64,000 nt of DNA from an uncultured Oscillospiraceae bacterium. Its GTDB lineage: Bacteria; Bacillota; Clostridia; Oscillospirales; Acutalibacteraceae. Of the stretch, positions 3,486 to 14,600 are shown piece after piece (the stretch's first letter is position 1; each line of letters starts with the position of its first letter). Position numbers and translations under genes: made by a program. The notes beneath the pieces were generated by a model. That model made no database searches. It had not been told where the DNA came from and was given only the letters and a program-made list of their open reading frames with translations. The DNA is taken from contig UQFM01000002.1 in NCBI GenBank assembly GCA_900540295.1, forward strand, positions 5,491 through 69,490. Reading direction: 5' to 3'.

Positions 3486-3584
3486 ACAAATTCCTCCTGA
3501 ATATAAGCATCTGCAATGCTTCTGATAAAGTATGAACTTTATTAACATTGTATGGCAAATTTTCGGTTGTGTGACGGATTTTCG

Positions 3585-3614
3585 GATGAAAAATGCGGCG
3601 GGAGCTTACTCCCG
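3585..3614 (-). terminator. putative terminator downstream of dut
   Basis: Hairpin GCGGGAG-ctta-CTCCCGC is followed on the minus strand by ATTTTTCAT. Confidence 0.35.
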
Positions 3615-3767
3615 CCGTGTCTGTGTATTCGGTATACCGTGTGCTGTGTGCGCAAACTCCCTCAGTCACACACTTCGTGTGTGCCAGCTCCCTCGGGGAG
3701 GGAGCGAAAAGAGGTTTATAAATTAAAAACTTCACCTGACGGTGCAGAATGACAAGCGTATGCAGAT

Positions 3768-4211
3768 TTATTTTGTCCCTGTTGACCCGAAGCCGCCCGC
3801 GCCCCGTTCGGTTTCGTCTAAATCCGCCGCTTCTTCCACGGGCATCACGGAAACGGGCATCACCACAAGCTGTGCAATGCGTTCACCGGGCTGGACGGTA
3901 TACGGCTCTTTGATTTGATTGATGACGCCGACCTTGATTTCACCGCGGTAGTCGCTGTCAATCACGCCGACGGAATTGAGCAGCCCGATACCGTGCTTAA
4001 TCGAAAGTCCGCTTCTGGCAAATACAAACGCGCCGTACTGCGCACTCGGCAGTGCGATAGCAAGCCCTGTGGGAATCAGCGCGGTTTCGCCGCCCGCGAG
4101 CGTCAGCGGTTCGTCGATGCACGCGCAAAGGTCTAAGCCCGCGCTCCCTGCGGTGGCGCGGTGCGGGATGACTGCATTTTCGTGTACTTTTTTAATTTTC
4201 AAGGTTTCCAT
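3768..4211 (-). CDS. dut: dUTP diphosphatase
   Basis: 147 aa. Motifs AGSAGLDL, GVIDSDYRGE and RIAQLVV are typical of trimeric dUTPases. Confidence 0.9.
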   Translation of the reverse strand: METLKIKKVHENAVIPHRATAGSAGLDLCACIDEPLTLAGGETALIPTGLAIALPSAQYGAFVFARSGLSIKHGIGLLNSVGVIDSDYRGEIKVGVINQIKEPYTVQPGERIAQLVVMPVSVMPVEEAADLDETERGAGGFGSTGTK

Positions 4212-6238
4212 TATTCAACACCTCTGTAAAATAATCCTCTGGTATATTCGCCGACAGGGGCTTCGCCCGCCGCATACGCGCGCAAAACAGCGGCACATTC
4301 CGTTTTAGATTCCGTTGTAAAATCATATAAATGAAAATCCACATTGCAAATTTCCGAAAGACGGTCACCCAAATAAGTGGGGCGGGAATTGAAAATTTCG
4401 GAAAAGCCGTTTTCGCAAAGCACAGGGAAGAAAATCCCCTTGCGGTCGGTAAGACCGCTTTGCCGTCCGCACTCCTTGCAGGATTTGCCGTTTTTCACGG
4501 GACAGTTTCGTGTCAGCATCAGTGGCGTTCTGCCGTATACGCACACACCGCGCGGCAAACTGCCGCCGAGAGCGGCGATTTGCGAAACGGTTAATTCCTC
4601 CGAAAGCGTGGCTTCCGCCGCGCCGATTTCCGCAAGCTCTTCGAGCGCCAATGTATTGAATATATTGAGAAACGCGCCGCCGATAATTTCCACACCTGCA
4701 TTTTTCGCGATGGCGACCGCATCCAGCGTATCACACAGCGCATAAGCTGCGCCGCTGTTTCTTAACTGTTCTGCAATCTTCTCTTCCGTGCCGAACAGTC
4801 CGCGCGGCAGGTATACCCCTGCCTGATAGGATTCCAGCACGGCACGCGGTGTACCGAGCGGCAAAAATATACGGTCAGCCGTCACACCGTCAGGGATTTG
4901 CGAAACCGAGCGAAAGCGAAGATACCGCTTCGGTATGCCTGCCGTATGTGCAGAAAAGTCAAGCGGTACATTTGCAGTGCGTTTCGGTTCTGCCGCACAA
5001 ATTTGTGCTTCCAATTCCGAGAGTGCCGTTCGGCGCAGTGCATTTAAAGCAGACAGCGGCAGACTGACATTGTCGGAAAACCGACAGTGAATATCCTGCG
5101 CATAAAAAACCGTACCACCGCATTTTTGCAGCTGCACACACGCTTTTTCTTCTGTCAGCGGTACGGATTTCGCCGTTTCGCAAAGGCGCTCTCCGACCGC
5201 CACGGCACGGTATTTACCGCACGCCGCTTTCAGCGTCGGCACCTCGCCGACCTTTGCCTGCAAAGTAAAATCCACAGGAAATACCGTGCGCTCTTTTTCA
5301 TACAGCGCGGCGTATTTTTTGAACAGTGCATTTGTCGCCGCCGTTACATTTTCTTTTTGCCGCGTACCGAACATCTCTTTGCCGAGTGTGTTTTGAAAAT
5401 AGCCGTCCGTAAATCCCGAACGGGAAAACAGCGCGCCGAGCTCTGCCTTTTGCTGTGCGGTATAAGTGCCGTCCAGTGCCGATTTGCACGCCGTCACCGC
5501 CGCCGCCACATATTCCGGGCGTTTCATTCTGCCCTCAATTTTAAAGGAATCTATTTGAAGTGCGGCAAGTGTTTGGGCATTCTCCAATAAAGATAAATCT
5601 TTCAGACTTAAATCATGCCCTGTGCCGCCCTCTGCGGCAAACGACAAGCGGCACGGCTGGGCGCAGAGTCCGCGGTTGCCGCTCCGTGAACCGAGCATCG
5701 CGCTTAAAAGGCACTGCCCCGACACACACATGCATAAAGCACCGTGCACAAACATTTCCAATTCCAGGGGTTTGTCCTTACAAAGCGCCTCGATTTCCGA
5801 TGCGGACAGCTCGCGCGGCAGTACCGCACGGGTAAATCCGCGCGAACGCAACAGAGAAAGCCCCGCCCTTGTGCCGACGGACATCTGTGTGGACGCGTGC
5901 TTTTCCATATCGGGACACATCTGCCGCACCAAACGCAGCGCACCCAAATCCTGCAAAATCAGCGCATCTGCGGCTTCCCGACAGGTGCGCTGCACGGTTT
6001 GCTGCAAGGCGGCAAGCTGATTGTCCGCCGCCAAGGTATTCAAAGTTATATGAAACCGCACACCGTGCAGTCTGCAAATTTCGGCGGCACGTGAAAACGC
6101 CTCGCCGTCAAAATTGTCGGCATTCCTGCGGGCATTAAAATCCCCCGCGCCGAAATACACCGCATCCGCACCGCTGCGCACGGCGGCTGTCAAAGCTTCC
6201 GCATTGCCGCAGGGGGCTAAAATTTCGGGACGCATCAT
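4211..6238 (-). CDS. U32 family peptidase (long form, PrtC-like with C-terminal extension)
   Basis: 675 aa. N-terminus PEILAPCGNAEALTAAVRSGADAVYFG is typical of peptidase U32. Confidence 0.85.
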   Translation of the reverse strand: MMRPEILAPCGNAEALTAAVRSGADAVYFGAGDFNARRNADNFDGEAFSRAAEICRLHGVRFHITLNTLAADNQLAALQQTVQRTCREAADALILQDLGALRLVRQMCPDMEKHASTQMSVGTRAGLSLLRSRGFTRAVLPRELSASEIEALCKDKPLELEMFVHGALCMCVSGQCLLSAMLGSRSGNRGLCAQPCRLSFAAEGGTGHDLSLKDLSLLENAQTLAALQIDSFKIEGRMKRPEYVAAAVTACKSALDGTYTAQQKAELGALFSRSGFTDGYFQNTLGKEMFGTRQKENVTAATNALFKKYAALYEKERTVFPVDFTLQAKVGEVPTLKAACGKYRAVAVGERLCETAKSVPLTEEKACVQLQKCGGTVFYAQDIHCRFSDNVSLPLSALNALRRTALSELEAQICAAEPKRTANVPLDFSAHTAGIPKRYLRFRSVSQIPDGVTADRIFLPLGTPRAVLESYQAGVYLPRGLFGTEEKIAEQLRNSGAAYALCDTLDAVAIAKNAGVEIIGGAFLNIFNTLALEELAEIGAAEATLSEELTVSQIAALGGSLPRGVCVYGRTPLMLTRNCPVKNGKSCKECGRQSGLTDRKGIFFPVLCENGFSEIFNSRPTYLGDRLSEICNVDFHLYDFTTESKTECAAVLRAYAAGEAPVGEYTRGLFYRGVE

Positions 6239-6606
6239 TGCTCGTCCGTCTGCGGTGCAAACAAGTTCATTTGATTGGATTTTGCTTTCGCCTCCGTGCG
6301 CACACGGTCCAATTCGCGCTTATAAAAATCGCGCTCGGTCTGCGCCTCGGAAGCATCCTTTAAATAATCCTTAATCTGCGCACGGTAGCCCTCGGCGGTT
6401 TGCTCCGATTTTCTTGCTTTGTCGGCGAATTCAATCGCCACAAGCACCGCCGCCTGATTGGTGGACATAAAGGGATTTGCACCTTGCAGTTCCTTCATCT
6501 TGCTGTCAATTTCCGTTGCGATTTCATTGGTGTACTCCGCGGTCTCATCCGTAATGAGTGAATAATTCACACCCGCTATAGTTACCTTGACTCTGTTTCT
6601 TTCCAT
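6235..6606 (-). CDS. zapA: cell division protein ZapA
   Basis: MERNRVKVTIAGVNYSLITDE... with RBS GAGGTG. ~123 aa. Overlaps the U32 start by 4 nt. Confidence 0.75.
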   Translation of the reverse strand: MERNRVKVTIAGVNYSLITDETAEYTNEIATEIDSKMKELQGANPFMSTNQAAVLVAIEFADKARKSEQTAEGYRAQIKDYLKDASEAQTERDFYKRELDRVRTEAKAKSNQMNLFAPQTDEQ

Positions 6607-6724
6607 ATCCGAACACCTCAAATCCATAGATTTGCCTGTTTTTTCTATTATACTTTAAATTTTGCGAAACTGCAACCTTTTGTATAAGGATAAAACAGAA
6701 TTGATTCGCACCCGCGGAATGCAG

Positions 6725-7035
6725 AAGCTTGTCATTCTGCGCGTTCGCGAAGAATCGCACACGGCACGGAGTAAATCTGATTCTCGGTAGGGCGCGGGCT
6801 TGCTCGCGCCGCAGAATTTCATTAGATTTTTCGGACGAACACAGTTTGCCCCTGCGGGATTGGGATGTGTCTTTGGATTGTGCGAATTTCGCGGGCGATT
6901 TGTGAATCGCCCCTACACAGTCGGCGTGTTGCCGTTGGGGTGTACGATTTTTTTACGGGCGCGCAATGCACGCCCCTACGGGTTTGTCCGTTTGCGGGTC
7001 GCTGGGGATACGGCTGCGCGAAATTTTATCGGATT
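6725..7035. repeat. REP-like repeat cluster R1 (module A at 6731-6760 plus several hairpin-CTAC units)
   Basis: Contains TGTCATTCTGCGCGTTCGCGAAGAATC, GGGCGATTtgtgAATCGCCCCTAC and GGGCGCGCAATGCACGCCCCTACGGG. Members of the same family recur at eight other loci. Confidence 0.8.
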
Positions 7036-7041
7036 TCGCTT

Positions 7042-7068
7042 CCGCAACCGTTAGTTGCGGCTTTTTTT
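7042..7068 (+). terminator. rho-independent terminator immediately after repeat cluster R1
   Basis: CCGCAACC-gtta-GTTGCGG followed by CTTTTTTT. Confidence 0.6.
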
Positions 7069-8609: not shown

Positions 8610-8893
8610 TGCTTAAGATTAACATTCAGCTTTTCGCGCATAAAAAAGGTATGGGTTCGACCAAAAACGGTCGTGACTCCGAATCCAAAAGACTCGGCGT
8701 AAAGCGTGCGGACGGTCAGTTCGTTTTGGCGGGCAACATCCTCGTCAAACAGCGCGGCACGCACATTCACCCCGGCGAGAATGTAGGCAGAGGTTCCGAT
8801 GACACCCTGTTTGCGAAAATCGACGGCAAAGTGAAGTTCGAGAGAATGGGCAAAGACCGCAAAAAGGTCAGCGTCTATGCTGTTGAACAGTAA
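8609..8893 (+). CDS. rpmA: 50S ribosomal protein L27 (with Prp-cleaved N-terminal extension)
   Basis: [32 protein letters not shown]... Confidence 0.9.
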
Positions 8894-8911
8894 TTGCTGT
8901 AAAGCTTGATG

Positions 8912-8949
8912 AAAAGGACAGAGAAGCACGGCTTCTCTGTCCTTTTTTA
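8912..8949 (+). terminator. rho-independent terminator of the rplU-prp-rpmA operon
   Basis: GGACAGAGAAGC-acg-GCTTCTCTGTCC followed by TTTTTT. Confidence 0.8.
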
Positions 8950-9059
8950 TGTCGGGGGTCAATTTATGATAAAGCACAGGGGCAAATGCTTTTTTCCTGT
9001 GTTTTTATTTTCTATTCGGACACGTGCGTTATGGTTATGCAAGCAAGCCTTTTGCATAG

Positions 9060-9165
9060 CAGGCCTCTACGGCGTGTTTTGCCGATGACCCAATTCTGCC
9101 GCAGAATGGTTTTCATTTTGTCGATCTCACGAAGAAATTCGATTTGGGATGTTAATTTTTGACTA
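9060..9165 (-). pseudogene. remnant of the 5' end (~35 codons) of the HD-domain gene found intact at 10808..11395
   Basis: Revcomp reads ..SQKLTSQIEFLREIDKMKTILRQNWVIGKTRR, versus the intact MDSQKLTSQIEFLREIDKMKSVLRQNWVIGNARR. The ATG is destroyed, the copy carries several synonymous changes, and similarity breaks after codon ~35. Confidence 0.7.
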
Positions 9166-9352
9166 TATTGTAGGGGGCGACGGTCTCGCCTGCCGGCTTG
9201 GTCGGTGCTTCTGCATACTTCCGTATGCAGAGGTCTCCACCGGAGACCCGCACCCCGCCCTACCGAGAATCAAATTCATCCTGTGCCATGTGAGATTCTT
9301 CGCTGACGCTCAGAATGACAAGTCTGCGCAAACTGTGTAGGGGCGGATGTCC
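9166..9352. repeat. REP-like repeat cluster R2 (module A reverse at 9292-9322)
   Basis: TGTAGGGGGCGAcggtcTCGCC..., CCCTACCGAGAATCAAATTCATCC and GAGATTCTTCGCTGACGCTCAGAATGACAAG. The same edge architecture is seen in R3. Confidence 0.8.
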
Positions 9353-9469
9353 TCGTTTGATACCATTTCAGGTAACAGATTAAACCGTTTCATTTCAAGA
9401 CTCTAATCTGTTACCCATGTCCTTACACTCCTGTTACCTTTCTTTACTCTTGACAGTCCTCATCCGCCC

Positions 9470-10537
9470 CTACGGTTCGCATATTAACTGCGTCGTTGCC
9501 GAATCCATCGCGCGCAATGCCTTTTGCGCCCATACATTCTGCGGCTCGATTTGCAAAACGAAACGGAGCCTGCCGATTAAATGCGCCGCGTACCGCTCGG
9601 CGTTCGGCACGCCGTTTTCTATAAAATCCGTTCTGTCGGCGTGCAAAATGCTGTCGGCAACACCGAATTTTAATGCGTAATAGACTTCTTGGCGCAGACC
9701 GCGCTTGTAATCGGCAGACACAGATACTTTTTCATTCACGGTAAGCCCCGTCACGCTTTGACGGGTCGCATTCGTAAAGAATTTGGTTTTGCGCTCGTTT
9801 AACACAAAGCCCATTTCGCGGAGCATTGCTTGCGCTTTTTGATAAACCGCATACAGCGGCACATCTGCCGAAAAGGTCATATCGTCACAGTAGCGCGTGT
9901 AGGCAATGCCGCGCGCGGCACACCACTTGCCGAGGTTGTCGTCAAAATTGCGCATAACCAAATTGGAAAGCGCGGGCGAAGTCGGCGCACCTTGGGGAAG
10001 CGCTTCTTCCCGACAGCAGAGGGTGGTCAGAAGCACGCCGACGGATTTCGGGAAATAGCGCGTGTGGAATGCGGCACTGTAAACCTGCCCAAAGCGGATG
10101 CTGCCGAAAAAATCCGTGATATCCAGCTTTAAAAGATAGCGTTTGCCGACGTGCGGGGCGGCATTTGCGCGCAACGAACTGCCGGGTGCATAAGCCGTTG
10201 CATACGGCGAAATCGGCAGTTTTTGCAGAATCTGCCGCAGAATACGGACTTGCAGTGCGCGAAGCTCTGCGTTCGGCACATACAGTCGGCGCACGCCGCC
10301 GTTCTTTTTGCGGATTGTCACCGCGCGGTACGCATCGTCTGCGTGATTCCAATAATTGTACAGCTTGCGTCTGCCGATTTTTAAGCAAGCCGCAGTTTGG
10401 TAGGTATCATACAGAAATGGCAGGGGCTGTACTAAGGTATAATCCAATACCATTTCGGTTGCCGCCGCAATGCCGAATTTCCGCACAAATGCCATATCGC
10501 ATTCCGAAAATCGGACGGTATCTCCCAGCACTTGCAT
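9470..10537 (-). CDS. retron-type reverse transcriptase
   Basis: 355 aa. RT motifs: RKKNGGVRRL (domain 1); NAAPH (retron-specific NAxxH) in ANAAPHVGKRYLLKLDITDFFGSI; LPQGAPTSPALSNLVM; YCDD catalytic box; VTG in RQSVTGLTVN. RBS TGGAGTGA sits 6 nt upstream of the ATG. Confidence 0.9.
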   Translation of the reverse strand: MQVLGDTVRFSECDMAFVRKFGIAAATEMVLDYTLVQPLPFLYDTYQTAACLKIGRRKLYNYWNHADDAYRAVTIRKKNGGVRRLYVPNAELRALQVRILRQILQKLPISPYATAYAPGSSLRANAAPHVGKRYLLKLDITDFFGSIRFGQVYSAAFHTRYFPKSVGVLLTTLCCREEALPQGAPTSPALSNLVMRNFDDNLGKWCAARGIAYTRYCDDMTFSADVPLYAVYQKAQAMLREMGFVLNERKTKFFTNATRQSVTGLTVNEKVSVSADYKRGLRQEVYYALKFGVADSILHADRTDFIENGVPNAERYAAHLIGRLRFVLQIEPQNVWAQKALRAMDSATTQLICEP

Positions 10538-10562
10538 ACAAGGTCACTCCAAAAAATAAAAA

Positions 10563-10761
10563 TCCGCACTTCGCAGTACAAAATGACGCGGTAAAAGCGC
10601 AGGCGAACCCGAAAATCACGCAGTGATTGGTAGTTCGTCGGAGCGTTACCGTGCAACGTTTTTTCCGTGGGAAAAACGAGCATCGGGGATGGAAAACCAA
10701 GCGGCGACTCGCCGCTCTGCTTGAAACTGTTTTCAAGCTGTACACTACTGCAAAGTGCGGA
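10563..10761 (-). ncRNA. retron msr-msd non-coding RNA (candidate)
   Basis: A 16-bp inverted repeat a1/a2 spans 10746-10761 / 10563-10578 (TACTGCAAAGTGCGGA vs revcomp TACTGCGAAGTGCGGA) with one G-U position. A G lies immediately 3' of a1 as a candidate branch point. The 5' part has two short stem-loops (GCUUGAAA/UUUCAAGC and GCGGCG/CGCCGC). The 3' part has a long interrupted hairpin (CGGUAA..CGAAC..AAUCAC-ugc-GUGAUU..GUUCG..UUACCG). It ends 25 nt before the RT start. Confidence 0.75.
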
Positions 10762-10771
10762 ATATATACTA

Positions 10772-10800
10772 ATCATATCGGATATGTGGCGGGGTGTCAA
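10772..10800 (-). promoter_or_regulatory. consensus sigma-A promoter driving the retron ncRNA-RT transcript
   Basis: Minus strand reads TTGACA, 17 nt, TATGAT. The predicted TSS is ~4 nt upstream of a1. The -35 box lies 7 nt after the HD gene stop. Confidence 0.7.
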
Positions 10801-10807
10801 TACGGCA

Positions 10808-11395
10808 TTATTTCAATAGCCCTTTTTTGTAACACGACTCCACGGCAAACTCCACAAATGCCCAAAGCGCGGGAAGAACCTCTTTGGTCAACGCATTGCG
10901 TGCATAGACCTGTTCGCGGGTGACGGTGCGCCCTTTCCAAGAGGCACCGTCCGTATAGTAGTTTAACAGTAGGGGCTGTAAGCGGTCAATCGCGGCGGCA
11001 TACTGCGCATCGTCGGTTTCGGCTTTGTCGAATTCTTCCCATAGTGCGCGGTAGGCTTTGCCCTGCTCGTCGGGCAGGAGCGCTTCCACGCGGTCAGCGG
11101 CAAGAGCTTCGCGTGCCTGCTGTGTTTCCACAACGTCCTTGTCAAAACACGGTGTGTCGCCCGCATAGATTTCCACCAAATCGTGAACCAACAGCATACG
11201 GACGGCACGGTCAATATTGACTGTGGGCTTCGCGTATTCAGAGAGCGTGAGCGCCATCATCGCCGCGTGCCACGAGTGCGCGGCGTCGTCCTCACGGCGT
11301 GCGTTGCCGATGACCCAATTCTGCCGCAAAACAGATTTCATTTTGTCGATTTCTCGAAGGAATTCAATTTGAGAGGTTAATTTTTGACTATCCAT
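10808..11395 (-). CDS. HD-domain phosphohydrolase, YfbR-like 5'-deoxynucleotidase family
   Basis: 195 aa. AAHSWHAAMMAL and LLVHDLVEIYAGDTP match the YfbR HD motif. Co-oriented with and immediately upstream of the retron. Its 5' 105 bp is duplicated as a fragment at 9060-9165. Confidence 0.8.
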   Translation of the reverse strand: MDSQKLTSQIEFLREIDKMKSVLRQNWVIGNARREDDAAHSWHAAMMALTLSEYAKPTVNIDRAVRMLLVHDLVEIYAGDTPCFDKDVVETQQAREALAADRVEALLPDEQGKAYRALWEEFDKAETDDAQYAAAIDRLQPLLLNYYTDGASWKGRTVTREQVYARNALTKEVLPALWAFVEFAVESCYKKGLLK

Positions 11396-11437
11396 TTATA
11401 TCCGCCTTTTCTTTTGATAGTTGGTTTTCGACTATAC

Positions 11438-11690
11438 ATGTAGGGGGCGATTTTTTACATCTGCATGTACTTGCGTTTACAAACCGTAGGGGCGTGCATT
11501 GCGCGCCCGCCGAAGTCTGATGAATTTTGCGGACGGACGAGGACGTCCGTCCCTACGCGCAAATCCAATTCATTTTGTACTGTGGGCAGGACGGACAGCC
11601 ACAAGGGCTGTCCCTACGGGTTGCGAATCAAATTCACCTTGTTCTGTGTGCGATTCTTCGCTGCGCTCAGAATGACAGATTGTTCCACAT
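11438..11690. repeat. REP-like repeat cluster R3 (module A reverse at 11650-11678)
   Basis: Contains CGTAGGGGCGTGCATTGCGCGCCC, GGACGGACGAGGACGTCCGTCCCTACGCG, GGACGGACAGCCacaaGGGCTGTCCCTACGGG and GCGATTCTTCGCTGCGCTCAGAATGACAG. Confidence 0.8.
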
Positions 11691-11694
11691 TCCG

Positions 11695-14600
11695 TCAATG
11701 CACCAAATAGCCGAAAACTTCACGCAGGGTATCTAGCGGCGTTTGGCTGTCGCCGATTTTTACGGCAATGTGCTTTTTGCCGCAGTCCGCAACCGACACT
11801 CTGCCGCGCAGTGCGCCTGACAGGTTCAATACCATTGAGGTATCCATTTCGTGGACATATAAAAGCACGCTTTGTCCCTTTTGCCCGATTTCGTAAATGC
11901 CCTTTGCCGCCGCCGTGTTGCGCAGTAAGGAGATGTCAATCAGCCCCTCTACCGAGCGCGGTATTGCACCGTAGCGGTCACGAAGCTCGTCGCGCACATC
12001 TGCCGCGTCCTCTGCGGAGCGAATATCCGCGATACGGCGGTAAACGGCAAGCCTCTGCGGAATGGTGTCGATGTATTTTTCGGGAATGTGCGCATCAATT
12101 TGCATATCGATTAAGCAGTCTTTTTGCTTTAAGGGATTTTGTTCGCCCTTTTCCTCGCTGACGGCTTCGCCCAACAGCTGTAAGTACATATCATACCCGA
12201 CCGCTTCCATATGCCCGTGCTGCTGCGCGCCCAAAACATTGCCCGCCCCGCGGATTTCGAGGTCGCGCATCGCGATTTTAAAGCCCGACCCGAATTCCGT
12301 GTATTCGCGGATTGCCGACAGTCTGCGGTTCGCAATCTCCGACAACTCTTTGCCGCGCGTGAATGTGAAATAGGCACTGGCACGGCGCGCACTTCTGCCG
12401 ACGCGTCCGCGAATCTGGTGCAGCTGTGCAAGGCCCAAACGGTCCGCGTCCTCAATAATCAGCGTGTTGCAGTTGGGGACGTCCACGCCCGTTTCAATAA
12501 TCGTGGTGCATACGAGAATGTCAATATCGCCTTCCAACAGCCGCCGCCAAATATCGCCGAGTTCATCCTCTGCCATTTTGCCGTGCGCCACGGCGACGCG
12601 TGCCTCGGGAAGCAGTTCCGCGATTTCGCCTGCACGCTGGTCAATGGTTTCCACGCGGTTGTGCAGGAAATACACCTGCCCGCCGCGCCGCAGTTCTTTT
12701 TCCATCGCCTGTAACAGAATGCCCATATCGTATTCAATTACATAGGTCTGCACGGGGGAGCGGTCCTGCGGGGCTTCCTCAATGACCGACATATCACGGA
12801 TGCCCGTCATCGCCATATTGAGTGTGCGCGGAATCGGCGTTGCGGACAGCGTCAGCACGTCTACCGTGGGGAACAGTTCCTTTAATTTTTCTTTCTGCGC
12901 CACGCCGAACCGCTGTTCTTCATCCACAATGAGCAATCCCAAATCCTTGAATTTTACGTCCTTGGAGACAAGTCGGTGCGTGCCGACAATCAAATCTATA
13001 TTGCCGCATCGCAAATCTTTGAGGATTTTTTCCTGCTGACGGGCGGTGCGGAAGCGTGAAATCATTTCCGTTTCAATCGGGAAGCCCTCAAAGCGGTTTA
13101 AAATGGTGCGGTAATGCTGTAATGCCAAAATCGTGGTCGGCACCAAAATAGCGCATTGCTTGCCGTCCGCTACGCATTTGAATGCGGCGCGCAGAGCGAC
13201 CTCGGTTTTGCCGAAGCCTACGTCGCCGCAAAGCAGTCTGTCCATCGGGTAGCTTTTTTCCATATCGCCCTTGATTTCGTCAATCGCGCGTAGCTGGTCG
13301 GCGGTTTCCTCATAGGGGAAACGACGTTCAAAGTCACTTTGCATATCAATGTCGGGGGAGAAGGCGTACCCGGGGGCGTTTTGCCGTTTGGCGTAGAGCG
13401 CAATAAGCTGGTCTGCCATATCCTTGACCGCCGTGCGCACGCGCGAACGCGTTTTTTCCCATTCCTTGCCGCCGATGCGGTTCAATTTTACGGTGCGTCC
13501 CGTTTCCTCGTGCGGACCGATGTATTTGGAAACCAAATCCAGCTGTGTAACGGGGACATACAGCACATCGCTTTTGGCGTAACGGATTTTAATGTAATCC
13601 TTGGTGATTTTGCCGACTTCTAATTTCTGAATGCCGTCAAATACGCCGATGCCGTGCGCCGCGTGGACAACATAGTCGCCTTTATGCAGTTCGTCTAAAG
13701 AGTGCAGTCCCTGTCCCTTTTTAAACCCCGCGCGGGATTTGCGTTTCGCCTGTACGGCGGCGCGGGTATAGGTATAGACATAAAATTTTTCGTGCGGATA
13801 AGAGAATCCGTAGGAGAGCGTTCCCGAAAGCACTGTCACGCGCCCTTTCGGGAATGCGTTCGGCGTTACGGGGAAATACAGCGCGGGAATGCCCTCGGCT
13901 TCCAAATCCTCTGCGAGGGTTTTGGCGGATTTTTCCGTGCCGCCGAGCACAACGACCGTCGCATCCTTTTGCAGGATGGGCTGAATATCCTCGCAAAGTA
14001 TATCCAGCTTGCCGTTCCAGCCGGGCAGTTGTGTCGCAGTAAAGGTGACAAGGTCTTTTACAGGTGTGTCAAAGCTCCCGCGTGCAAAATTGTCAAGATA
14101 AATGACGCTGTGTTTTTCGTAGGCACGGAACAGCTCGGCAGGCGTTAGATGAAATTTATCTACACCCTTACAAAGCTGTCCTTCCTCCAAAAGTGCCTTG
14201 ATTTCTTCCTGTATCAGCTTTGCGGAGGCGTTTGCGCGCTCTTTCACATTGGCGCTTTCACAGATGAAAACAAATGTGTTTTCATCTGCATAGTCGAAAA
14301 CTGTCTGCGCACTTGAAAAAGCGAGCGGCAAGTACTTGTCGGTGGAGTTTAATTTCACACCGCTTTTCAGTCGGTCAATATCACTGAACAGTGCTTCTTT
14401 TTGCTTGGCGGCGTGCTTGCCCTTCAGTGTTTTCGAGAGGGCTTCGATTTTTTCAATCAACACGCGGTCGCTGTCAAACAGTACTTCTTTGGCAGGCATT
14501 AAAGCGAATTCCGTCAGGCGTTCGTTGCGGCGCTGAGAACGAATATCGAAGTAAGACATACTGTCTACCGTGTCGCCGAAGAACTCCACGCGCACGGGGT

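What the first reader, a model, noticed from the sequence alone, without database searches (positions are those of the whole stretch)
9470..10801. Compact retron: consensus promoter, a1/a2-bounded structured ncRNA, and an RT with NAxxH and VTG motifs
The 355-aa RT has the two retron-diagnostic motifs (NAAPH in RT domain 2, VTG in domain 7) plus a YCDD catalytic box. Its 5' UTR is ~225 nt long and begins at a perfect TTGACA-17-TATGAT promoter. That UTR is bounded by a 16-bp inverted repeat, a1 at 10746-10761 and a2 at 10563-10578, with one G-U position and a G immediately 3' of a1, which is the expected 2'-5' branch position. Between the repeats the RNA can form two short msr-like stem-loops and a long interrupted msd-like hairpin. 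This is the canonical msr-msd-RT architecture of anti-phage retrons. Nothing comparable is annotated for this kind of high-GC Clostridia-like backbone in my knowledge. The YCDD box, rather than the usual YADD, is unusual.
Basis: partly seen in the sequence, partly recalled or inferred. Interest (0 to 1): 0.9.

Follow-up and report, generated by a model that had tools for sequence, protein, structure and literature searches.

The report
Ec107-type effector-less retron, gut Clostridia
This is a genuine retron (a reverse transcriptase plus the structured RNA it copies into small single-stranded DNA), but it belongs to the already described Ec107-like lineage that is common in gut Firmicutes and has no partner toxin gene, so it is a new member of a known kind rather than a new system.

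Summary
There is a 355-aa RT (9470-10537, minus strand) with NAAPH, YCDD and VTG. There is an 11/12 sigma-70 promoter (10800-10772). A 16-bp a1/a2 inverted repeat (10761-10746 / 10578-10563) is followed by a G, and structured RNA lies between the arms. The retron reading is strongly supported. The best profile is PADLOC RT_Ec107-like (1.3e-119). The RT is 44% identical to the E. coli Ec107 RT, which also has YCDD. The top 18 PDB fold matches are retron RTs. In 51 related loci the ncRNA helices covary: 96% of cells are paired against 40-48% for slid controls, and 30 of 37 pairs show compensatory changes. A covariance model built only from the Clostridial loci finds the experimentally validated Ec107 msr-msd at E about 4e-10. 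No accessory or effector gene is conserved in 80 related loci, and none lies in the 64-kb window. The neighbours are housekeeping genes (rplU-prp-rpmA; HD_3, mfd, pth). The novelty claims fail. YCDD is the published hallmark of Ec107. The "clade 2 Ec107-like" lineage is published as orphan (Mestre 2020), and a 2026 preprint describes it as predominantly gut Bacillota. The window is 51% GC, not high-GC. Biological role remains open. Interest is low to moderate.

The parts
10772..10800 (-). Sigma-70-type promoter, TTGACA-17-TATGAT. The expected transcription start is about 10765, a few nt before a1.
   Evidence: 11/12, best in the region. A similar promoter sits at the same distance from the branch G in many related loci.
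10746..10761 (-). a1 arm of the retron inverted repeat (UCCGCACUUUGCAGUA).
   Evidence: I3. In helix 1 of the family structure, 11 of 12 pairs show compensatory changes.
10745..10745 (-). Predicted branching G, whose 2'-OH would prime msDNA synthesis.
   Evidence: Invariant column in 51 loci. The same ..AAUA|G context occurs in E. coli Ec107. The priming role is inferred, not shown.
10719..10738 (-). msr stem-loop 1. The sequence varies between loci but the pairing is kept.
   Evidence: Helix 2: all 5 modelled pairs have compensatory changes.
10700..10716 (-). msr stem-loop 2 (AGCGGCGAGUCGCCGCU), the most conserved element. It is the probable RT recognition hairpin.
   Evidence: The GCGAGUCGC core is invariant or nearly invariant in 51 loci and is present in E. 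coli Ec107 (GGUCGGCGAGUCGCCGAC). RT binding is inferred.
10657..10678 (-). Stem-loop 3 (CGUUUUUCC-CAC-GGAAAAAACG). A hairpin of different sequence sits at this place in most relatives.
   Evidence: (I18), and sequences read by eye. It is not in the modelled consensus, so its covariation was not quantified.
10587..10653 (-). Long interrupted msd hairpin with an AAUCAC-UGC-GUGAUU tip. It is the template for the msDNA stem.
   Evidence: Helices 4 and 5: 9 of 11 pairs have compensatory changes. MFE fold.
10563..10578 (-). a2 arm (UACUGCGAAGUGCGGA). Reverse transcription is expected to start on the G at 10579, just 5' of it.
   Evidence: The start site is inferred.
10545..10550 (-). Shine-Dalgarno-like GGAGUG upstream of the RT start codon.
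9470..10537 (-). Retron reverse transcriptase, 355 aa (NAAPH, YCDD, VTG). It has a conserved N-terminal extension of about 20-30 aa (beta-hairpin plus helix) relative to the Ec86 and Ec107 RTs.
   Evidence: dN/dS is 0.06-0.18.
9337..9473 (-). 13-bp perfect inverted repeat (GTAGGGGCGGATG / CATCCGCCCCTAC) that overlaps the RT stop codon. The distal arm belongs to a dispersed intergenic repeat. It may act as a transcript end or stabiliser. It is not conserved in the sister species.
   Evidence: (I5, I7). Its role was not tested.

Best explanation
This is an Ec107-type (Mestre clade 2) retron consisting only of a promoter, an msr-msd non-coding RNA and its reverse transcriptase. It sits in a housekeeping region of a gut Oscillospirales-like Clostridia genome.

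Proposed mechanism:
1. The promoter at 10800-10772 makes one transcript that carries the ncRNA and the RT ORF.
2. The RT binds the conserved msr hairpin SL2.
3. The a1/a2 duplex places G10745 next to the template.
4. The RT uses that G's 2'-OH to prime cDNA synthesis. It copies the msd from about 10579 back towards SL2.
5. The product is a branched RNA-DNA msDNA. By analogy with Ec107 it would be roughly 100-115 nt.

Shown here: RT family membership, the conserved and covarying ncRNA architecture, homology of that ncRNA to the validated Ec107 msr-msd, purifying selection, and absence of any conserved accessory gene.

Inferred: msDNA synthesis itself, the exact start and stop of the cDNA, and the biological role. 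My best guess for the role is that the RT-msDNA complex acts as a sensor or modulator without a cis-encoded toxin. Any partner would be encoded elsewhere or be absent. The confidence given applies to the identity as an Ec107-type retron that makes msDNA; confidence in any particular biological role is much lower.
For: RT identity:
- PADLOC RT_Ec107-like scores 1.3e-119 / 397 bits, ahead of RT_III-A, II-A, XII and XI.
- The RT is 44% identical over 278 aa to the E. coli E2348/69 Ec107 RT between pyrE and slmA, with the same YTRYCDDMTFS, NAxPH and VTG.
- PDB sequence hits: Ec86 RT 2.6e-42, against group II intron RT 3e-8 and DRT2 5e-7.
- The AF2 model has pLDDT 88.9, and its top 18 Foldseek PDB hits are retron RTs.

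ncRNA:
- An a1/a2 repeat plus the invariant G occurs in about 70 homologous loci.
- The RNAalifold consensus has 37 pairs, 30 of them with compensatory changes.
- 96.2% of cells are paired against 40-48% when partners are slid. The covariation score is 0.59 against 0.09-0.19, and 0 of 500 shuffles reach it.
- CM R1 was built without any E. coli sequence. It hits the Ec107 msr-msd over its full length at 45 bits, E about 4e-10, and hits the window once at 158 bits.

Selection and fixation:
- dN/dS is 0.06-0.18.
- The same locus is 99.5-99.7% identical in 8 independent assemblies, and a sister species has it at 81% nt identity.

No effector:
- 80 loci; the window's 56 other ORFs; the HD gene is not linked elsewhere.

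Literature:
- PMC7736814 (orphan Ec107 branch), PMC6868368 (YCDD in Ec107; the Ec107 insertion has no mobile element), bioRxiv 10.64898/2026.05.14.725207 (clade2_Ec107like is mostly gut Bacillota with no accessory modules).
Against: - No msDNA has been observed for this locus or, as far as I found, for any Clostridial member. Production is inferred from homology to Ec107.
- Rfam 15 gave no hit in the region, but I did not check whether Rfam holds a model that covers Ec107-type ncRNAs.
- The RT scores 232.4 bits on NCBIfam retron_St85_RT, just under the 235 cutoff. The Ec107 RT itself scores 229.9.
- The loci in the covariation alignment were chosen for having an a1/a2 repeat, which biases helix 1. 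Helices 2-5 were not selected for.
- Phylogenetic placement rests on HMM ranking and pairwise identity, not on a tree.
- Without an effector, the functional part of the explanation is weak.
Confidence: 0.88

Rival explanations
1. The retron is one part of a tripartite defence system whose effector is encoded elsewhere in the genome (in trans), beyond the 64-kb window.
For: Most characterised retrons need an effector. A WYL/WCX regulator lies within 6 kb of the RT in 16 of 80 related loci. An AAA ATPase lies near the RT in about 6 related loci, with a detectable DUF2201 metallopeptidase/VWA partner in two of them (L002, L043). This hints that some members sit in defence-type neighbourhoods.
Against: No accessory family recurs across the 80 loci. 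No retron-effector model is hit in the window. Mestre 2020 notes that most genomes with orphan retrons lack homologues of known retron partners (PMC7736814).
Confidence: 0.2
2. The adjacent upstream HD_3/YfbR-like phosphohydrolase (10808-11395, same strand, stop codon 7 nt before the -35 box) is the retron's effector.
For: The two are tightly juxtaposed on the same strand. The linkage is kept in all 8 strain assemblies and in the sister species L090.
Against: None of the 81 other loci (80 relatives plus E. coli Ec107) has an HD_3 homologue within 6 kb. The HD protein matches no PADLOC model. The retron has its own strong promoter. In L090 about 380 nt including a repeat element separate the two.
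Confidence: 0.04
3. The locus is a decaying relic of a retron that lost its effector and no longer has a function.
For: There is no effector. The setting is chromosomal and housekeeping. There is a rearrangement scar next to it, an HD pseudogene fragment at 9069-9166.
Against: The RT is under purifying selection, dN/dS 0.06-0.18, including the N-terminal extension. The catalytic and retron motifs are invariant. The ncRNA helices are maintained by compensatory changes. The promoter is kept. The ORF is intact in all strain assemblies. More than 500 species genomes carry full-length homologues.
Confidence: 0.04
4. The RT is not a retron RT but belongs to another class (group II intron, DGR, Abi, DRT/UG).
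For: There are weak shared-RT-domain hits to group II, Drt2 and Drt3a.
Against: Those hits are 25-100 orders of magnitude weaker than the retron hits. There is no maturase/En domain, no intron RNA, and no DGR TR/VR or Avd. The ncRNA is retron-type.
Confidence: 0.01

Closest known systems
Retron-Eco5 (Ec107) of E. coli; Mestre et al. 2020 RT clade 2, 'Ec107-like' orphan branch
   Same: - RT 44% identical, with the same YCDD, NAxxH and VTG motifs.
- Same gene order: promoter, msr-msd, RT, in about 1.3 kb.
- Same ncRNA architecture, including the GGCGAGUCGCC hairpin and the ..AUA|G branch context. The ncRNA is detected by a cross-built covariance model.
- No adjacent effector, and inserted among housekeeping genes with no mobile-element genes nearby (PMC6868368, PMC7736814).
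   Different: - The host is a gut Clostridia (Oscillospirales-like) rather than an enterobacterium.
- The RT has about 31 extra N-terminal residues, predicted as a beta-hairpin plus helix and conserved within the Clostridial subgroup.
- There is an additional variable hairpin (SL3) between msr SL2 and the msd hairpin.
- The msd stem sequence is unrelated.
clade2_Ec107like retrons of host-associated Bacillota (SPIRE survey, bioRxiv 10.64898/2026.05.14.725207)
   Same: The published description fits on every point: Ec107-like RT, Bacillota host, an ncRNA of the Ec107 type (the survey detects such ncRNAs with its own Ec107_like covariance model, which I did not run), and no recurrent accessory module. 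My 80 related loci are almost all Oscillospiraceae, Acutalibacteraceae or Ruminococcus MAGs from gut samples.
   Different: Nothing substantive. I could not check whether this exact sequence is in that data set.
Type III-A retrons (PRTase-like plus winged-helix accessory proteins), sister group of the Ec107 branch
   Same: These are the second-best RT profiles (RT_III-A, 3.5e-91).
   Different: No PRTase-like or wHTH accessory genes lie next to the RT or elsewhere in the window.
Retron-Eco1 (Ec86), type II-A, the best structurally characterised retron
   Same: It is the closest solved structure by sequence (2.6e-42) and by fold (Foldseek 1.8e-24, TM 0.68/0.76).
   Different: Ec86 works with an N-glycosidase (NDT-like) effector that binds RT-msDNA. 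No such gene is present here.

Membership tests
Retron (msr-msd ncRNA + retron RT) | RT with the retron-specific region X motif NAxxH and the VTG motif in domain 7, plus a YxDD catalytic box | tested here: met
   NAAPH, YCDD and VTG are in the translation. A126, H129, Y216, D218, D219, V262, T263 and G264 are invariant in 26 homologues.
Retron (msr-msd ncRNA + retron RT) | RT closer to retron RTs than to any other RT class | tested here: met
   PADLOC retron models score 1e-119 to 1e-49. In PDB, Ec86 scores 2.6e-42 against group II at 3e-8. In NCBIfam, retron models score 6e-69 against group II at 2e-17. The top 18 Foldseek hits are retron RTs.
Retron (msr-msd ncRNA + retron RT) | Adjacent ncRNA bounded by a1/a2 inverted repeats, with a conserved G at the 3' end of a1 | tested here: met
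   G invariant in 51 loci; 11 of 12 a1/a2 pairs have compensatory changes.
Retron (msr-msd ncRNA + retron RT) | Conserved msr stem-loops and an msd hairpin supported by covariation | tested here: met
   96.2% of cells are paired against 40-48% for slid controls. 30 of 37 pairs have changes on both sides. 0 of 500 shuffles reach the observed values.
Retron (msr-msd ncRNA + retron RT) | Production of msDNA, a 2'-5' branched RNA-DNA molecule | not testable with these tools
   This needs expression followed by small-DNA gels or sequencing. It is inferred from homology to Ec107, which does make msDNA (PMC6868368).
Retron as tripartite anti-phage system | A cognate effector or accessory gene linked to the RT and ncRNA | tested here: not met
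   No protein cluster recurs next to the RT in 80 loci: the largest (WYL) is found in 14-16 loci by two methods, at varied positions and distances. No retron-effector model is hit among the window's 56 other ORFs. The HD neighbour is not linked elsewhere.
Ec107-like (Mestre clade 2 orphan branch) | RT best matched by the Ec107-like profile and similar to the Ec107 RT, including YCDD | tested here: met
   RT_Ec107-like scores 397 bits against 304 for the next family. The RT is 44% identical to the Ec107 RT with an identical YTRYCDDMTFS. YCDD in Ec107 is reported in PMC6868368.
Ec107-like (Mestre clade 2 orphan branch) | ncRNA homologous to the Ec107 msr-msd | tested here: met
   CM R1, built from Clostridial loci only, hits L081:1860-2043 (E. 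coli Ec107) over its full length at 45.1 bits, E 4e-10 to 3e-11. The a1/a2, SL1, SL2 and msd helices all align.
Ec107-like (Mestre clade 2 orphan branch) | Placement inside the Ec107 branch on an RT0-7 phylogeny | not tested
   Only HMM ranking and pairwise identity were used. The Mestre reference alignment was not available.
Type III-A retron | PRTase-like and winged-helix DNA-binding accessory proteins next to the RT | tested here: not met
   Neighbouring genes are an HD_3 phosphohydrolase and ribosomal protein L27. No such families appear in the window.
NCBIfam retron_St85_RT (NF038233) | Score at or above the curated cutoff of 235 bits | tested here: not met
   The score is 232.4 bits, just below the cutoff. 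The Ec107 RT itself scores 229.9, so the model simply does not reach this clade.

The most novel reading that the evidence does not exclude
The Clostridial Ec107-like retrons are a lineage that works with no toxin effector at all. They are kept in chromosomal housekeeping contexts and have a lineage-specific N-terminal RT extension. In this reading the RT-msDNA particle itself is the functional end product, for example a starvation- or phage-responsive nucleic-acid sponge or regulator, rather than the guard of an abortive-infection toxin.
Probability: 0.2. Interest if true: 0.6.

Novelty: new member of a known kind. Interest (0 to 1): 0.27.

Why it matters
The locus adds one well-resolved example to a lineage that is already catalogued, the Ec107-like orphan retrons, which are abundant in gut Bacillota. 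Its value is practical.

- The anatomy is clean and fully mapped: promoter, branch G, three msr hairpins, msd hairpin and RT.
- It is supported by strong covariation, and it is fixed in all eight assemblies of this species that were inspected.
- That makes it a convenient candidate for asking what effector-less retrons do, a question left open since Mestre et al. 2020.
- It is also a compact 1.3-kb cassette that could be tested as an ssDNA producer.

It does not change what is known about retron diversity.

Tried and rejected
- **Rfam 15 scan of 8800-11500 at E<=10.** It gave only chance-level hits and no retron family. This is uninformative for Ec107-type ncRNAs.
- **Search for a conserved effector.** I clustered all ORFs of at least 80 aa within 4 kb of 81 loci, and ran Pfam on the 28 same-strand genes immediately downstream. 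Only heterogeneous housekeeping genes appeared. WYL/WCX was found in 4 of those 28, Sel1, hexapeptide transferases and MPG glycosylases in 2 each.
- **PADLOC on the window's 56 other ORFs.** The hits were ShosA, PsyrA, DpdF, Cas3 and similar. I attribute these to housekeeping homologues such as DprA and Mfd, an assignment inferred from the Pfam list and not checked ORF by ORF. No retron partner was found.
- **HD_3 gene as effector.** Rejected because it is not linked to the RT in any other locus.
- **Search for an empty site to define the insertion boundaries.** All 8 strain assemblies carry the retron, and so does the one sister-species contig (L090). No empty site was found.
- **The 98-nt direct repeat 9069-9166 / 11294-11391 as a possible target-site duplication of the retron.** It is a 5' fragment of the HD gene. 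It coincides with a synteny break relative to L090, so I read it as a rearrangement scar rather than a retron integration signature.
- **The 13-bp inverted repeat after the RT (9337-9473) as a retron feature.** One arm belongs to a dispersed intergenic repeat, and the structure is absent in L090.
Full report
**What is in the sequence**

The minus strand of 9470-10800 holds the following elements, in order:
- an 11/12 sigma-70 promoter, TTGACA 10800-10795, 17 nt, TATGAT 10777-10772. It is the best promoter match in 8850-11750.
- a 16-nt arm a1 (10761-10746), followed directly by G10745
- three short hairpins: SL1 10738-10719, SL2 10716-10700, SL3 10678-10657
- a long interrupted hairpin (10653-10587)
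- the complementary arm a2 (10578-10563), with one G-U position
- a GGAG ribosome-binding site
- a 355-aa ORF (10537-9470)

The leader folds far better than shuffled versions (z = -4.97). The ORF is an RVT_1 protein carrying NAAPH, YCDD and VTG.

**The RT is a retron RT of the Ec107 type**

- Against PADLOC, the best model is RT_Ec107-like (1.3e-119, 397 bits). RT_III-A (304 bits) comes next, then other retron types.
- NCBIfam ranks retron models (6e-69) far above group II (2e-17) and Drt2/3.
- Against PDB sequences, the best hits are the Ec86, Ec78, Ec67, Ec83, Kva2 and Eco8 retron RTs. Group II, DRT and DGR enzymes are many orders of magnitude weaker.
- An AlphaFold model built from 26 homologues is confident (pLDDT 88.9). 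Its first 18 Foldseek hits in the PDB are retron RTs, led by Ec86 at 1.8e-24.

I then recovered the real Ec107 locus from E. coli E2348/69. It is an RT gene between pyrE and slmA. Its RT is 44% identical to the window RT over 278 residues, with an identical YTRYCDDMTFS box, NAQPH and VTG. The review PMC6868368 states that YCDD is the variant catalytic box of RT-Eco5 (Ec107). The YCDD box is therefore a clade character, not an oddity. The cysteine is nearly invariant in the family.

**The ncRNA is conserved, covaries, and is homologous to the Ec107 msr-msd**

The RT has thousands of homologues: 5582 at E<=1e-10 among the candidates scored. More than 500 loci occur in species-representative genomes, almost all Oscillospiraceae, Acutalibacteraceae or Ruminococcus-type MAGs from guts.

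In about 70 of the 80 loci retrieved, the strongest long-range inverted repeat upstream of the RT lies in the same place as here. It starts about 220-240 nt before the ATG and ends about 20-30 nt before it. Its 5' arm ends in ..GCAGUA or ..GCGGCA and is followed by G. The arm sequences differ widely between loci.

An alignment of 51 non-redundant ncRNAs gives an RNAalifold consensus of 37 pairs in five helices: a1/a2, SL1, SL2 and two tiers of the msd hairpin. Thirty of the pairs show compensatory double changes. For the named-structure count:
- 96.2% of cells are paired, against 40-48% when partners are slid by 1-3 columns.
- The covariation score is 0.59, against 0.09-0.19.
- None of 500 shuffles reaches the observed values.

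One caveat applies. The loci were picked for having an a1/a2 repeat, which favours helix 1. Helices 2-5 were not selected for.

The G after a1 and the GCGAGUCGC core of SL2 are invariant. A covariance model built from these Clostridial sequences alone finds a single strong hit in the window (10567-10757, 158 bits). It also finds the E. coli Ec107 msr-msd over its full length (L081:1860-2043, 45 bits, E about 4e-10), with a1/a2, SL1, SL2 and the msd helix all aligned. Ec107 is an experimentally validated msDNA producer, so this is the strongest available computational argument that the window element is a working retron ncRNA.

A sigma-70-like promoter recurs at the same distance from the branch G in many loci.

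**Selection and distribution**

- dN/dS of the RT against five relatives is 0.06-0.18, including the first 58 codons.
- The exact HD neighbour protein is found in hundreds of assemblies. The eight longest contigs inspected all have the identical mfd-HD-retron-rpmA arrangement, and their retron region is 99.5-99.7% identical to the window.
- A sister species (L090; mfd 90% and HD 86% nt identity) also has the retron after the HD gene, at 81% nt identity. Synteny breaks immediately downstream.

The element is therefore stably maintained in this lineage and is not a decaying relic.

**No effector**

- Clustering all ORFs within 4 kb of the RT in 81 loci found no family present in more than 14 loci.
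- The nearest downstream genes differ in size, strand and family.
- The HD_3/YfbR-like gene just upstream of the window retron is not near the RT in any other locus, and it matches no defence model.
- The other 56 ORFs of the window give only housekeeping-type PADLOC and Pfam hits.

This matches the literature. Mestre et al. [quoted passage not shown] **Mechanism**

Shown:
- family membership
- conserved RNA architecture
- homology to Ec107
- purifying selection

Inferred:
1. One transcript starts at about 10765.
2. The RT recognises SL2.
3. Priming is from the 2'-OH of G10745, held next to the template by a1/a2.
4. cDNA synthesis starts opposite G10579 and runs back through the msd hairpin and probably SL3, stopping a few nucleotides 3' of SL2 as in Ec107.
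5. The product is a branched msDNA of roughly 100-115 nt (one search gives the 114-nt candidate).

The biological role is not established for any member of this branch. I rank the possibilities as follows: a partner-less or trans-partnered RT-msDNA particle first, the HD gene as effector low, and relic status low.

**Differences from Ec107**

- The Clostridial RTs are about 31 residues longer at the N-terminus. The extension is predicted as a beta-hairpin plus helix, is confidently modelled, and is conserved at F10, D14, F17 and G22.
- Their ncRNA carries an extra variable hairpin, SL3.

These are subgroup features, not a new architecture.

**Verdict**

The element belongs to a published, profile-covered lineage. 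The supposedly unusual features (YCDD, Clostridial host) are already on record, and the window is 51% GC, not high-GC. It is a new member of a known kind, with modest interest tied to the unsolved function of effector-less retrons.

Noticed in passing
window 9069-9166 (compare 11294-11391): A 98-nt fragment is 88% identical to the 5' end of the HD_3 gene (residues 3-34, 87.5% aa identity, no start codon). It lies downstream of the retron, next to a partial copy of the HD upstream region (9267-9305 compared with 11625-11663). It coincides with a synteny break relative to sister species L090. It looks like a rearrangement scar.
   Followed up: partly
window 6728-6797, 6908-6984, 9253-9349, 11481-11509, 11544-11556, 11625-11663; also 16169, 17676, 27892, 47055, 53330: A dispersed intergenic repeat family contains GTAGGGGCGGATG-type palindromic cores and a ..TGTCATTCTGAGC..AGCGAAGAATC.. 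module. The 13-mer has 8 matches against 1.1 expected. Copies flank the retron-HD block. They produce spurious ORFs with 'FFA.AQNDK'-like translations.
   Followed up: partly
L048 692-824 and 2033-2182; L053 5843-5975 and 7183-7331: Two related loci carry two retron ncRNA copies. A short-msd version lies upstream of the RT. A second, better-scoring copy lies immediately downstream of the RT.
   Followed up: no
L043 3295-3512 (ncRNA), 3514-4659, 4613-5986, 6001-7065 (RT): In one relative, the ncRNA is separated from its RT by two genes: an AAA (MoxR-like) ATPase and a DUF2201 metallopeptidase/VWA protein. AAA homologues also lie just upstream of the retron in L002, L005, L008 and L053; a weak DUF2201 match accompanies only the one in L002. 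This may be an accessory module of a subclade.
   Followed up: partly
L032, L033, L036, L039, L046, L066, L068 (directly downstream of the RT); 16 of 80 loci within 6 kb: A WYL/WCX-domain regulator of about 350 aa is repeatedly found next to these otherwise orphan retrons. None is present in the window.
   Followed up: partly
L005, L008, L031, L034, L048, L053 (ncRNA upstream of the RT): A subset of relatives has a much shorter ncRNA (133-141 nt). It lacks the conserved AAUCAC..GUGAUU msd hairpin, which implies a much shorter msDNA.
   Followed up: no
window, ORFs not individually located: There are PADLOC hits to SoFic (9.5e-34), ShosA/PsyrA (probably the DprA next to topA), mad3/mad8 and DpdF (probably Mfd or another helicase). 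Most look like housekeeping homologues. The Fic-domain gene was not examined.
   Followed up: no
L090 4957-6258; protein P0002 (433 aa): In the sister species, gene callers extend the RT ORF 75 codons upstream through the ncRNA. This produces a spurious 433-aa 'RT'. It is an annotation artefact to be aware of for this family.
   Followed up: partly
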